Shown in pieces: positions 3,193 to 61,858 of a stretch of 64,000 bases of DNA (positions are counted from its first letter, which is position 1; each line of letters starts with the position of its first letter). Where the stretch lies: the NCBI GenBank assembly GCA_951406725.2, contig OX597826.1, positions 60,512,001-60,576,000 on the forward strand. Direction: 5' to 3'. The stretch comes from Octopus vulgaris (lineage: Eukaryota). The notes under the pieces are model-generated. The model did no database searches, was not told the DNA's origin, and was given only the letters and a program-made list of their open reading frames with translations. A program made the position numbers and the translations under genes.

Positions 3193-3653
3193 GATGAAAA
3201 GCAAACTCGACCTCGGAGGAATTTGAGCTCAGAACGTAAAAGACAGACGAAATACCTATTTTTTTACTACCCACAAGGAGCTACACACAGAGGGGACAAA
3301 CAAGGACAGACAATCGGATTATATCGACCTCAGTGCGTAACTGGTACTTATTTAATCGACCCCGAAAGGATGAAAGGCAAAGTCGACCTCAACGGAATTT
3401 GAGCTCAGAATGTAAAGACAGACGAAATACCTATGTCTTTACTACACACAAGGGGCTACACACAGAGGGGACAAACGAGGACAGACAAACGGATTATATC
3501 GACCCCAGTGCGTAACTGGTACTTATTTAATCGAACCCGAAAGGATGAAAGGTAAAGTCGACCTAGGCGGAACTTGAACTCAGAACGTAACGGCAGACGA
3601 AATACGGCTAAGCATTTCGCCCGGCGTGCTAACGTTTCTGCCAGCTCGCCGCC
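3193..3653 (-). mobile_element. SINE B with tandemly repeated 175-bp module (two full plus one partial)
   Basis: GAAATAC anchor at 3249, 3424 and 3599 (period 175); single head at 3600-3653. Confidence 0.85.
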
Positions 3654-15588: not shown

Positions 15589-15756
15589 TATTTCAACGAA
15601 GGTATGTACATGTGCCTATGTATATACACAAAACTATGTGCATTTATTCATAGATATGATTACACTTATGTTCATATATACATGATGGATGTCATCTTTA
15701 AGTTGTTATCTCCCCTACTTTCCTCCTCGCGTTTGGCCTTTCTGTCCGGCACTGGT

Positions 15757-15952
15757 CGCCATGATACATCGTTAGCCACTACATACATTTTTTCTCTCCT
15801 TGCTTCTCCCTTTGTTTGTTCTGTGTACCTTTTGTGTAGCAGAGCGTAGGCTCGAAACGTAAAAGACTTTTTCTATTCCTGTGCGTTATACTAATACGTC
15901 TGTTTGTTTTGTATACCACCTGTCTTCGTCTTTTGTTGTTTTCGTAAACTCT

Positions 15953-15958
<6 letters not shown>
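15757..15958 (+). mobile_element. Family D short Penelope-like element with hammerhead-like motif (copy 1)
   Basis: ATCGTTAGCCACTAC...AGAGCGTAGGCTCGAAACGTAAAAGAC...CACCTGTCTTCGTCTTTTG...AACTCTCCC followed by (TA)n. Confidence 0.75.
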
Positions 15959-15993
<35 letters not shown>

Positions 15994-25808: not shown

Positions 25809-25882
25809 TATTACTAATACGTTATTTGTTTGTACTCCACCTGCCTTCGTCTTTTGTTTATTTTCATAAACCTTCCCGTTAT
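25809..25882 (+). mobile_element. Family D 3-prime fragment between (TA)n arrays
   Basis: TACTAATAC...CACCTGCCTTCGTCTTTTG...AAACCTTCCC. Confidence 0.7.
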
Positions 25883-25926
25883 ATCTATATATATATATAA
25901 TATCTAGCTATTTATATATCTATATA

Positions 25927-29483: not shown

Positions 29484-29547
29484 TATATATATACAGATAT
29501 ATATTTTATTTTTATTTTATTTTATTTTATCTAGTTTCAGCTCACGA

Positions 29548-29751
29548 GGGAAGTTTACGTAAAAAAGCAAAAGACGAAGACAGGTGGTGTACGAAACAAA
29601 CTGATGTATAAGTATAACTCTCAGGAATAGAAGAAGTCTTTTACGTTTCGAGCCTACGCTCTTCTGCAGAAAGGTATACAGAACAAACAAGAAAACAAGA
29701 AGAGAAACAAAGAGAGAAAAAAATGTGTGTAGTGGCTAACGATCTATCATA
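29548..29751 (-). mobile_element. Family D (copy 2)
   Basis: Minus strand CTTTCTGCAGAAGAGCGTAGGCTCGAAACGTAAAAGAC at 29636-29673. Confidence 0.8.
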
Positions 29752-31420: not shown

Positions 31421-31824
31421 GCCGCTGGAGTGGCTGTGTGGTAAGTAGCTTGCCTACCAACCACATGGTTGCCGGTTCAGTCACACTGCGTGTACCTTGG
31501 GCAAGTGTCTTCTACTAAAGCCTCGGGCCGACCAAAGCCTTGTGTGTGGATTTAGTTTATGGAAACTGAAGGAAGCCCATCGTCTATATGTATATATATA
31601 TATATGTGTGTGTGTGTTTGTGTCTGTGTTTGTCACCCTAACATCACTTGACAACCGATGATGGTGTGTTTACGTCCCCGTAACCTAACGGTTCAGCAAA
31701 AGAGACCGATAGAATAAGTACTAGGCTTACAAAGAATAAGTCCTTTGGTCGATTTGCTCGACTAAAGACGGTGCACCAGCATGGCTGCAATCACATGACT
31801 GAAACAAGTAGGAGAGTAAAAGAG
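31421..31824 (+). mobile_element. SINE family A, full length
   Basis: Head, internal TA/TG array and tail are all present. Confidence 0.88.
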
Positions 31825-31841
31825 TATACGTAAATGAGTAT

Positions 31842-32020
31842 CATGATTGATCGTTAGCCACTACACACATTTCTCTCCTTGTTTTCTGTGTCCCTTTCTG
31901 TAGAAGAGCGTAGGCTCGAAACGTAAAAGACTTTTCCTATTCCTGAGCGTTATACTAATACATCTGTTTGTTTTGTACACCACCCGTCTTCGTCTTTTGT
32001 TTTTTCCGTAAACTCTCCCT
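31842..32020 (+). mobile_element. Family D (copy 3, best-preserved hammerhead-like motif at 31894-31929)
   Basis: CTTT-CTGTAGA-A-GAGC-GTAG-GCTC-GAA-ACGT-A-AAAG. Confidence 0.8.
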
Positions 32021-32055
32021 ATATATATGTGTGTGTGTAAACATAAAAATATGCA

Positions 32056-46303: not shown

Positions 46304-46903
46304 GGCGGCGAACCGGCAGAATCGTTACCACGCCCGGCAAAATACTTGGCGGTATTTTGTCTGCCGCTACGTTTGGAGTTCAAATTGTGCTGAGGTCAAT
46401 TTTGCCTTTCATACTTTCGGGGTCGATTAAATAAGTTCCAGTTACGGACTGGGGTCGATATAATCGACTTAATCCGTTTGTCTCTCCTTGTTTGTCCTCT
46501 CAGTGTTTAGCCCCTAAGAAATAGGTATTTAGTCTGCAGCTACGTTCTGAGTTCAAATTCCACTGACGTCGACTTTGCTTTTCATCATTTCGGGGTCGAT
46601 AAATTAAGTACCAGTTATGCACTGGGGTCGATGTAATCGACTTTATTCCTTTTGTCTGTCCTTCTTTGTCCCCTCTATGTTTAGCCCCTTGTGGGCAATA
46701 AAGAAATAAGAAACGTTACCATGCCAAAAAAATACTTAGTGGTATTTAATCTGTCTTTACATTCTGAGTTCAAATTCCACCGAGGTCGACTTTTCCTTTC
46801 ACCTTTTCAGGTTCATAAATTAAGTAGTAATTGCATACTGGGTCGATCTAATCAACTGTCCCTTTCCCTCAAAATTTCAGGCCTTGTACCTAGATTAGAA
46901 AAG
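46304..46903 (+). mobile_element. Trimeric SINE B (B1-B1-B2) with 19-bp TSD
   Basis: Three GAGTTCAAAT...GTC-ACTTT...GGGGTCGAT modules; ATTATTTGTTTGTGACTAA at 46285-46303 and 46904-46922. Confidence 0.9.
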
Positions 46904-50621: not shown

Positions 50622-50645
50622 TATGCATATATATATATATATATA

Positions 50646-50830
50646 TAGTGAGAATTTACAAAAAAAAGCAAAAGACGAAGATGGGTGTGTAAACAACAAA
50701 CAGATGTATTAGTTTAACGCTCGGCAAGTGAGGAAGACTTTTACAATTCGAGCCTACGCTCTTCGGCAGAAAGGAACACAGAAATATACAGGGAGTGAAA
50801 ACAGAAAAAGGTTTAGTGGCTAGCGATCCA

Positions 50831-50831
<1 letters not shown>
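50646..50831 (-). mobile_element. Family D (copy 4)
   Basis: Minus strand CTTTCTGCCGAAGAGCGTAGGCTCGAATTGTAAAAG; the end abuts (TA)n. Confidence 0.8.
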
Positions 50832-50874
<43 letters not shown>

Positions 50875-58648: not shown

Positions 58649-59371
58649 GAGTAGAAATGTAAACCGCAATTTTCGCAGATTTACTCCAAAATTGAGCCTC
58701 GCGTTTATTGAAGACATCATTACTGTATGGGATATATAACTTCTATAAAAAGGATGATGGTGATATCGGCTGCATAGGTATGAGGATGATGATGATGATG
58801 AGGAGGAGGACAAGGATGGTGATGATGATGATGATGAAGAGGAGGAGGAGGAGAGGATGGTGATACTGGTGATGCCTACGACAGAGATAAAGACGACGGT
58901 GACGACGATGCTAATGGTAAAGATGAAGAAAATGCTGTGTCACAGTTGGTAACGATGCCAAAGCTAAGCTAATGGTGTTGGTAATGACGATCATCGTTGA
59001 TTGTGTTGAACACATCTATGACCGTATGGCGAGAGTGATTGTTATGAAGACATATTAACCGAATAAAGCGGACTTCTCAACAATGAGTTTATGACGATAG
59101 GGATGATGAAGATGGTAATGATGAAGACGACGACGACCACGATGACGATGACGATGATGATGATGATGACGATGACGATGGTGGTGAGGATGAAGAGCAA
59201 GCTGCAACGAACACGTGTAATATAAACAATTCCCATGAAATAAACCAGTTGCAGAGTAACCAGTAAATTTAATTTAGATGAATAAGGAATAATAAGGATC
59301 ATATTAAAGATATATCACACTAAGCAGTGTCTCATATAGACTATTTGTACGCGTGTGTGTGTGTAGCAATC

Positions 59372-59557
59372 GCCATAATTGACAGCTAGCCACTAAAGCT
59401 TTTTTTATTCTCTCTCTCTTTTTATTTTCTCATGTTCCTTTCAGTTGAAGAGCGTAGGCTCGAAAGGTAAAATACTTTCTCACCTTCCTTAATACACCTG
59501 TTTGTAGTTTACACACCTGTCTTCGTCTTTTAATATTTATTTTTTGTAAATTTCCAC

Positions 59558-61669: not shown

Positions 61670-61858
61670 TATTTTTTCTCTCCTTTTTTTCTCCTTCTTT
61701 TCTCTCCGGGTTTCTCTCCTTGTTTTTTTTTACAGTGTATCTTTCTGTAGAAGAGCGTAGGCTCGAAACATAAAAGGCTTTTTCTATTTCTGAGCGCTAT
61801 ACTAATACATCCGTTTGTTTGTACACCACCTACCTTCGTCTTTTGTTTATTTTCGTAG
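61670..61858 (+). mobile_element. Family D (copy 6)
   Basis: CTTTCTGTAGAAGAGCGTAGGCTCGAAACATAAAAG at 61741-61776. Confidence 0.8.

What the first reader, a model, noticed from the sequence alone, without database searches (positions are those of the whole stretch)
31842..32020. Six-copy ~190-bp non-coding family with an invariant hammerhead-like core variant (retrozyme-like)
Seen: copies at 15757+, 29548-, 31842+, 50646-, 59372+ and 61670+, plus a 3-prime fragment at 25809. All six keep AGAGCGTAGGCTCGAA unchanged (two CpGs) while the flanks diverge. The best copy parses as CTTT / CTGTAGA-A / GAGC-GTAG-GCTC / GAA / ACGT / A / AAAG: stem I, core, stem II, palindromic stem III, GUA site, stem I. 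Position 6 is T or C rather than the conserved A. Most copies end on (TA)n. Inference: a very abundant non-autonomous PLE derivative (about 1 per 10 kb here) using a non-canonical, probably dimeric hammerhead, or a dead ribozyme kept as an RT-recognition hairpin.
Basis: partly seen in the sequence, partly recalled or inferred. Interest (0 to 1): 0.78.

Follow-up and report, generated by a model that had tools for sequence, protein, structure and literature searches.

The report
Active Penelope retrotransposon with U6 hammerhead
The short repeats are the shared end of an intact, recently active Penelope-like jumping gene, whose hammerhead-ribozyme motif has carried U instead of the normally fixed A6 through five subfamilies while the rest stayed constant, so it likely still works as a slow, protein-assisted ribozyme that standard searches miss.

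Summary
The six copies are real (6 exact matches, 0.08 expected) and the hammerhead parse is right, but they are not retrozymes. They are short insertions of the terminal repeat (pLTR) of an autonomous 4.5-kb Penelope-like element (RT, CX4CxxC, GIY-YIG). Its youngest copies are 99.3-99.8% identical and carry the same motif in both pLTRs. The genome holds 22,835 exact 16-mers (about 40,000 copies estimated), mostly dispersed monomers ending on (TA)n. The family state is U6, not C6; the rare A6 copies look like neutral mutants. In single copies the motif's CpGs decay like the flanks, but across five subfamily consensuses 35 of 36 motif positions are constant. Only the free position N7 varies, so the master elements kept the motif under selection. 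None of 90 unbiased copies starts at the cut site and 40 start about 95 nt upstream, so the templates were uncut or re-ligated, as in published PLE biochemistry. All 56 published representative PLE hammerheads have A6; I found no U6 report. Cleavage is untested. The scan noted a different PLE core variant (U-A pair) elsewhere, not this one. Verdict: new variant of a known kind.

The parts
31842..32020 (+). Short PLE pLTR insertion (subfamily with U6-A7); starts in the 5'-end hot spot, ends at the element end on (TA)n
   Evidence: 92.6% to the 3' end of PLE copy L134
31894..31929 (+). Minimal type-I hammerhead motif: stem I (4 bp), C3 U4 G5 U6 A7 G8 A9, extra A, stem II (4 bp, GUAG loop), G12 A13 A14, palindromic ACGU stem III, A17; predicted cut 31925/31926
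   Evidence: matches the published min-HHR consensus except A6
31901..31901 (+). U6, the non-canonical core position, fixed in all five subfamily consensuses
32020..32029 (+). (TA)n at the element end; in full-length elements the matching junction is an invariant ATATAT (inferred internal priming site)
15686..15959 (+). Copy reaching about 70 nt further into the PLE 3' UTR; core broken (C3 and A9 changed)
29547..29750 (-). Copy with C6, motif otherwise intact
50644..50832 (-). Older copy, C6-C7, stem III broken
59367..59543 (+). Older copy, U6-U7, with U4, 15.2 and stem I changes
61695..61857 (+). Copy with U6-A7, CpG decay in stem III, start about 25 nt downstream of the hot-spot ATG
25809..25884 (+). 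3'-terminal fragment lacking the hammerhead, flanked by (TA)n; 90-92% to the ends of L122 and L140

Best explanation
These are short insertions of the terminal repeat of an autonomous Penelope-like retrotransposon, and the U6 motif in that repeat likely remains a slow hammerhead ribozyme that would cut only as a dimer or with help from the element's protein. Shown: the 4,482-bp unit encodes RT plus a C-terminal GIY-YIG nuclease, insertions end 100-115 nt downstream of the predicted cut on (TA)n, and full-length copies have an invariant ATATAT at that point. Inferred: the nuclease nicks (TA)n and RT starts inside the RNA at that AUAUAU, as shown in vitro for an anole PLE. It mostly copies uncut RNA and stops about 190-200 nt later at a fixed place (probably the transcript start, alternatively a conserved hairpin), giving the tens of thousands of ~190-bp copies. 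Inferred: rare cleavage, then ligation or read-through, gives the longer templates that make partial tandems. U6 would lower the rate but be tolerated because cutting is needed only occasionally.
For: ORFs of 680-1200 codons in 20 of 20 fetched loci; 19 carry the motif and every motif copy found there has U6. RVT_1 E=6e-8; YIDD, CX4CxxC, GIY-YIG-type motifs. Nine loci are partial tandems with an ATATAT junction; five young ORFs are 99.3-99.8% identical. (AT)3+ follows 81 of 90 copies. Across 5 subfamily consensuses 35 of 36 motif columns are constant against 60 of 90 downstream (Fisher P=1.5e-4). The variable one is N7 (U, C, A, G); the youngest copies also change N17 A to U; both are the free hammerhead positions. 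Four-fold-site distances are 0.08-0.17 between subfamily majorities and up to 0.43 between single copies. A sister family in the same genome has A6 and a compensatory stem I change, C-G to G-C. A6:G6 = 72:28 of 100 listed (282 total) equals A4:G4 = 71:29 (165 total), so A6 copies look like neutral mutants. 5' ends: 40 of 90 within 26 nt around the conserved CGCC-ATG (P about 1e-28 against background hazard), 0 of 90 within 5 nt of the cut, 81 of 90 span it. PMC11167929 (parts 1-2 of 4 read): internal RT start, uncut RNA the dominant template, hammerhead active only with protein. Natural A6C keeps low activity (PMC3088659 passages; PMC7151607 part 1 of 4).
Against: No cleavage data. In pairwise mutagenesis, CUGA-turn mutants other than the C3-G8 swap were of low activity (PMC9901934 passages). 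No copy class marks the cut (0 of 90; about 3.6 expected from background), although that is also true of the A6 sister family (0 of 30 by eye). Loop II (GUAG) is as constant as the core, which catalysis alone does not require. U6 is one site: its retention over this time is compatible with drift as well as selection. The predicted monomer does not take the hammerhead fold at minimum energy (-7.4 against -8.6 kcal/mol), the modelled hammerhead dimer is less stable than the best alternative dimer (-13.9 against -23.6), and the 179-nt copy folds worse than its shuffles (z = +2.0). The subfamily consensuses come from 284 copies picked by motif-biased searches.
Confidence: 0.55

Rival explanations
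1. Same element and same origin of the short copies, but the motif no longer cuts. It is kept as a sequence- and shape-specific signal, such as a binding site for the PLE protein near the priming site or a promoter or export element.
For: Loop II is invariant in all five subfamilies; no insertion begins at the cut; hammerhead mutants did not affect insertion in vitro (PMC11167929); Naiad PLEs spread without canonical hammerheads (PMC8557442 passages); a sister subfamily has fixed C4, so the U-turn looks relaxed in these elements.
Against: The only positions that changed among masters (N7; N17 within A/U) are those a working hammerhead leaves free, and the catalytic guanosines, C3-G8, the dimer palindrome and stem I pairing are all kept.
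Confidence: 0.27
2. The constraint on position 6 comes from splicing. A short retained intron would run from a G(U/C)U(A/G)G donor about 10 nt after the conserved ATG, across the pyrimidine tract, to an AG inside the motif. U6 would favour the acceptor, and spliced mRNA would lose the ribozyme.
For: Donor-like GTTAG/GCTAG/GTTGG and a 45-60-nt pyrimidine tract precede the motif in 7 of 8 consensuses. D. virilis Penelope has a 75-nt intron between its start site and the hammerhead (PMC2377424 passages; PMC4209133 part 2).
Against: U6-A7-G8 forms a YAG in only 25 of 78 copies. A U-rich stretch is part of the general min-HHR consensus, and the whole sense strand is pyrimidine-rich. No such joint is listed, though contigs could hardly show a ~20-nt first exon.
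Confidence: 0.1
3. The ~190-bp copies are a self-propagating non-autonomous retrozyme that spreads through small circular RNAs.
For: Very high copy number, small size and no coding capacity in most copies; one array of 4 or more units (L007). Transcription of solo copies and SINE-like re-copying is not excluded.
Against: Tandems in 1 of 30 and 0 of 30 loci. Copies begin about 95 nt before and end about 105 nt after the cut, with no sequence joining end to start. The short-copy subfamilies with U7, C7 and A7 (and one G7 locus) all have ORF-bearing members. Three of four L007 units share a broken A15.1, which points to DNA duplication.
Confidence: 0.06

Closest known systems
Minimal hammerheads in pLTRs of metazoan PLEs (Cervera & De la Pena 2014, PMC4209133)
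   Same: U-rich 5' flank, short stem I, extra nucleotide between 9 and 10.1, G10.1-C11.1, palindromic 15.2/16.2, NUH, location in both pLTRs, thousands of solo copies from truncated elements.
   Different: U6. All 56 representatives in their Fig. S3 have A6 (plus the 12 rows), and their descriptor fixed the core boxes. Their only core covariant in the parts read is U3-A8.
Neptune/Nematis-type EN+ Penelope-like elements (as described in PMC8557442)
   Same: Single ORF, RT then GIY-YIG, DKG motif, CX2-5CxxC linker, CCHH finger, partial tandems, (TA)n targeting.
   Different: Clade between Neptune and Nematis not tested by phylogeny; very high share of ~190-bp copies with a sharp 5'-end hot spot.
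PAc Poseidon element of Anolis (Frangieh et al. 2024, PMC11167929)
   Same: Element end lies about 85-115 nt downstream of the hammerhead cut; uncut RNA as template; AT-rich targets.
   Different: PAc has a hammerhead overlapping the start codon and primes without homology. Here the motif is about 0.7 kb upstream of the ORF, and the end falls in an AUAUAU that could pair with the (TA)n target.
A6C hammerhead of phage Bcep176 (PMC3088659; PMC7151607)
   Same: Natural pyrimidine at position 6, rest of the core intact.
   Different: A single phage motif with C6 (low activity, prefers Mn2+), against U6 fixed in an active transposon lineage with tens of thousands of copies.
Animal non-LTR retrozymes (PMC7229834; bioRxiv 10.64898/2026.07.22.740005)
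   Same: Small, abundant, type-I hammerhead, PLE-related.
   Different: Retrozymes are tandem 150-450-bp units with a complete ribozyme in each; these copies are dispersed monomers continuous with a coding element.

Membership tests
EN+ Penelope-like element (Neptune/Nematis type) | Single ORF with RT and C-terminal GIY-YIG endonuclease | tested here: met
   968-aa ORF in L121; RVT_1; motifs; homologues carry PF00078 and PF01541 (PF01541 = GIY-YIG is recalled)
EN+ Penelope-like element (Neptune/Nematis type) | DKG motif, CCHH finger and CX2-5CxxC linker | tested here: met
   DKGG in L122-L125 (DKSG in L121), CX4CxxC at 835, CxxC inside the GIY-YIG core; features from PMC8557442
EN+ Penelope-like element (Neptune/Nematis type) | Partial-tandem structure forming pLTRs | tested here: met
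   9 of 20 long-ORF loci; repeats of 0.3-1.4 kb, 99.4-99.8% identical in L122, L125, L126
EN+ Penelope-like element (Neptune/Nematis type) | Insertion bias to (TA)n | tested here: met
   81 of 90 copies
EN+ Penelope-like element (Neptune/Nematis type) | RT phylogeny separating Neptune from Nematis | not tested
   No named reference sequences available
EN+ Penelope-like element (Neptune/Nematis type) | Retained intron in the pLTR or 5' UTR | tested here: inconclusive
   Donor-like and pyrimidine-tract signals; no joint listed in contigs
Minimal PLE hammerhead | Core CUGANGA | tested here: not met
   U6 in 74 of 78 copies and all five consensuses
Minimal PLE hammerhead | Extra nucleotide after A9, G10.1-C11.1, GAAA, palindromic 15.2/16.2, U16.1-H17, stem I of 3-5 bp | tested here: met
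   compensatory stem I change against the sister family
Minimal PLE hammerhead | Self-cleavage (as dimer or with protein) | not testable with these tools
   needs an assay; contigs show no ends
Non-LTR retrozyme | Tandem 150-450-bp units, each with a hammerhead | tested here: not met
   1 of 30 and 0 of 30 loci
Non-LTR retrozyme | Non-coding element, not part of an ORF-bearing unit | tested here: not met
   continuous with PLE ORFs
Non-LTR retrozyme | Circular RNA intermediate | not testable with these tools
   only assembled contigs of runs guessed to be RNA

The most novel reading that the evidence does not exclude
A natural A6U hammerhead that cleaves efficiently only inside the PLE ribonucleoprotein or with Mn2+. 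It would act as a tuned switch between two products of one transcript: uncut RNA gives the ~190-bp promoter-bearing insertions, and cut-and-religated RNA gives full-length partial tandems. Core-relaxed hammerheads of this kind (U6 here, C4 in a sister subfamily) would be a hidden class missed by CUGANGA descriptors.
Probability: 0.2. Interest if true: 0.7.

Novelty: new variant of a known kind. Interest (0 to 1): 0.42.

Why it matters
What PLE hammerheads do is an open question: the one biochemical study found them dispensable for insertion in vitro, and a survey suggested they may merely parasitise PLEs. This family gives a natural test. A successful, recently active lineage has lacked a 'strictly conserved' core base through at least five subfamilies while keeping every other constrained position, and an A6 sister family sits in the same genome as a control. 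It also shows that descriptor searches fixing CUGANGA miss tens of thousands of motifs in one genome, which bears on statements that some PLE groups lack hammerheads. The sharp 5'-end hot spot in solo copies, absent from 9 of 9 partial tandems, points to two template classes and can be tested with RNA-end mapping.

Tried and rejected
Rfam: no hit in the window at gathering thresholds. No PLE coding remnant in the window. Idea that U6/C6-A7-G8 is a family-wide YAG splice acceptor: rejected, because N7 is A in only 25 of 78 copies; kept as a minor rival. Idea that U6 inactivated the ribozyme and so released the short copies: not supported, because the A6 sister family also gives ~200-nt copies that span the cut. 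Idea of A6 master subfamilies inside the family: not supported, although three A6-U7 copies lie in the first 4.1 Mb of C1. Search for copies starting at the cut: 274 matches; about 12 of 100 listed join within 0-2 nt of it, all at a TA that can pair with the target, and the denominator was not measured, so inconclusive. Metagenome scan for U6 motifs: 16 hits; 4 have stems I and III (L327, L330, L331, L335), none has a PLE ORF nearby, and L327's inverted partner has canonical A6, so they are probably single mutants and are not counted. Sequencing runs: no RNA holder listed on record. Contigs of four runs guessed to be RNA cover the ORF 3' half and pLTR but cannot show ends or strand. The 5' UTR and intron question was not examined on reads. 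One automated pass scored 23 of 30 sister-family loci 'NOHH' because the regular expression assumed a 4-nt loop; they were re-read by eye. The first dS script returned zeros through a parameter error and was rerun. One reference without an ATG landmark was left out of the normalised end mapping. Consensus clusters with fewer than 8 members (4 of 12) were dropped before the conservation count. Literature searches for U6 or octopus PLE hammerheads found no report. Lunse et al. 2017 (about 150,000 PLE-linked variants) is not held and could contain U6 examples.

Full report
Observation. The 16-mer occurs exactly six times in the window at the stated copies, against 0.08 expected from 100 shuffles. 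BLAST of the 31842 copy finds these six and the 25809 fragment at 76-86% identity. The hammerhead parse is correct, with the predicted cut at 31925/31926. Only the 31842 copy has the whole motif intact; 29548 differs by C6 and the others have core or stem changes. Rfam finds nothing. The window is microsatellite-rich and AT-rich and has no PLE coding remnant. The host genome G000 is 2.8 Gb in 227 contigs. Its flanking repeats remind me of octopus SINEs; that is recalled and not tested.

Abundance. G000 has 22,835 exact matches of the 16-mer pattern, one per 123 kb, so the window is about ten times denser than average. The window's subfamily 27-mer alone occurs 5,077 times. To avoid motif bias I anchored on a 3' flank 21-mer (16,777 matches) and took the first 90 of the 100 listed places. 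Of these, 78 span the motif and 50 keep the 16-mer. This gives about 36,000 motif-bearing and about 41,000 total copies, a lower bound because the anchor favours young copies. CpG sites decay equally in the motif (7.6%) and the flanks (7.0-7.3%), so inserted copies are not under visible selection.

What the repeat belongs to. Longer copies continue 5' through a CA/pyrimidine-rich UTR into RT-thumb and GIY-YIG remnants. A protein search gave 9,103 candidates, 150 of them scored. I fetched 20 loci with long open frames. All have ORFs of 680-1,200 codons, 19 carry the motif at the 3' end, and every motif copy found has U6. The 968-aa protein of L121 has RVT_1 (E=6e-8), YIDD, a CX4CxxC linker and a GIY-YIG-type domain with internal CxxC. 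Per PMC8557442 (passages) these mark Neptune/Nematis-type PLEs, which are linked to (TA)n targeting. Homologues (489 at E<=1e-3, best about 52-62% identical) carry RT and GIY-YIG Pfam domains; the few named ones are from molluscs, a coral and a sea urchin. Nine loci are partial tandems: an upstream 0.3-1.4-kb copy of the 3' end, then an invariant ATATAT junction, then the unit of 4,482 bp. The two pLTRs are 99.4-99.8% identical in L122, L125 and L126, and five young ORFs are 99.3-99.8% identical, so the lineage was active recently. L134 joins the window's U6-A7 motif to a frameshifted ORF, and the 31842 copy is 92.6% identical to its end. (AT)3 or more follows 81 of 90 copies. Direct tandems within 600 nt occur in 1 of 30 and 0 of 30 unbiased loci, and 2 of 30 best-hit loci. 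The retrozyme definition (tandem units; PMC7229834 passages; bioRxiv 10.64898/2026.07.22.740005 part 1 of 5) is not met.

Position 6. It is T in 74 of 78 copies, while position 7 is T 29, A 25, C 16, G 8. Clustering 284 motif-bearing copies gave 12 clusters, 8 with at least 8 members: five of this family and three of a sister family. Among the five, 35 of 36 motif columns are constant, against 60 of 90 downstream and 22 of 70 upstream (the latter inflated by alignment noise; Fisher P=1.5e-4 for downstream). The variable column is N7; the youngest copies also have U17 for A17. Four-fold-degenerate sites differ by 0.08-0.17 between subfamily majorities and 0.27-0.43 between the youngest copy and single old copies. 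At 0.17 the chance of no change in 35 sites is 1.5e-3. The sister family has canonical A6, a different loop II and a G-C for C-G swap in stem I, and one of its subfamilies has C4. A6 copies within the family (about 200) have the same A:G ratio as mutations at U4 (72:28 against 71:29 of 100 listed each, counted by eye; totals 282 and 165), as expected for neutral changes after insertion. So U6 was fixed in the master lineage and the rest of the motif was selected in a hammerhead-like pattern. Against a purely catalytic reading, loop II is also constant, and single-site retention does not prove that U6 itself is favoured.

How the short copies arise. In the 90 copies, 40 5' ends fall within -15 to +10 of a conserved CGCC-ATG about 90-105 nt upstream of the cut, 15 lie further upstream and 35 downstream. 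None lies within 5 nt of the cut, and 81 span it. The hot-spot excess over background hazard has P about 1e-28. The A6 sister family shows the same pattern by eye (0 of 30 start at the cut), so it is not caused by U6. The upstream copies of all 9 partial tandems run past the hot spot (to -177 to -1286 from the cut), which would be unlikely (8e-6) if it were a constant RT stall. This favours two template classes: linear RNAs that start there, and longer circular or read-through templates. An initiator-like TCAG lies at the spot, and D. virilis Penelope starts about 125 nt upstream of its hammerhead from an internal promoter (PMC2377424 passages; position 496). However, a hairpin whose stem differs between subfamilies yet still pairs also ends there, so a stall is not excluded. 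PMC11167929 (parts 1-2 of 4) showed internal RT initiation about 85-92 nt downstream of the cut, uncut RNA as the main template, no RNA-seq ends at the cut, and cleavage only with protein. The present anatomy fits this.

Catalysis. Untested. Natural A6C keeps low activity (<0.1/min; PMC3088659 passages) and prefers Mn2+ (PMC7151607 part 1 of 4). CUGA-turn mutants are generally weak (PMC9901934 passages). Minimal PLE hammerheads are weak even as dimers (PMC4209133 parts 1-2 of 4; PMC6765202 passages). Folding models do not favour the active fold for monomer or dimer. RNA evidence is uninformative: no run is on record as RNA, and contigs cannot show ends.

Novelty. The motif matches the published min-HHR consensus at every position but 6, and all 56 representatives in that paper's Fig. 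S3 have A6 (supplement parts 1-2 of 3), though their search fixed the core. Searches found no U6 PLE hammerhead. A 2026 octopus repeat annotation lists recently active Penelope families and does not mention hammerheads in its main text (PMC13282606 passages). Lunse et al. 2017 could not be read, and its supplement may bear on the claim. Four metagenome hits with U6 look like single mutants. The scan's own notes hold nothing similar by sequence or in this genome and one different PLE core variant.

Verdict. The element and the origin of the short copies are of a known kind (confidence about 0.9). The U6 core fixed in an active, selected lineage is a new variant. Interest 0.42.

Noticed in passing
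L261-L290 and clusters c1-c3: An older sister PLE family with canonical A6, compensatory stem I and 3-4-nt loop II. One of its subfamilies (8 copies) has fixed U4C, a second U-turn variant in the same genome.
   Followed up: partly
L122, L134, L140, about 30 nt either side of the conserved ATG: Predicted hairpin ending at the 5'-end hot spot; its outer stem is GAUC/GAUC in one subfamily and CGUC/GACG in another (compensatory).
   Followed up: partly
window 31843-31857 and the consensuses: A 4-codon mini-ORF (M-I/L-D/I-R-stop, TAG or TGA) follows a GCC-ATG in four family consensuses (the fifth starts downstream of the ATG); the sister family has ATG-TGA there. It may be promoter sequence rather than a uORF.
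   Followed up: no
L007:714-1685: Array of at least four units (about 250-275 nt each); three share a broken A15.1, suggesting DNA-level duplication.
   Followed up: partly
L121: Intact ORF whose two pLTRs belong to different subfamilies (82% identical): a recombinant or template switch.
   Followed up: no
L017, L026, L073/L074, L290: Inverted partial copies next to an insertion, the known PLE inverted-repeat arrangement.
   Followed up: no
listing: C6 is 7 of 100 in the A7 subfamily against 1 of 78 overall; possibly a small C6 sub-lineage (2 of 6 window copies have C6).
   Followed up: no
window 3193-3605, 46351-46689, 31630-31825: Other short interspersed repeats: 175-bp x2.4 and 173-bp x2 tandems, and a SINE-like copy directly upstream of the 31842 copy (SINE identity recalled, not tested).
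   Followed up: no
L327, L330, L331, L335: Minimal hammerheads with stems I-III and U6 in low-GC metagenome contigs, probably single mutants of A6 families in animal DNA.
   Followed up: partly
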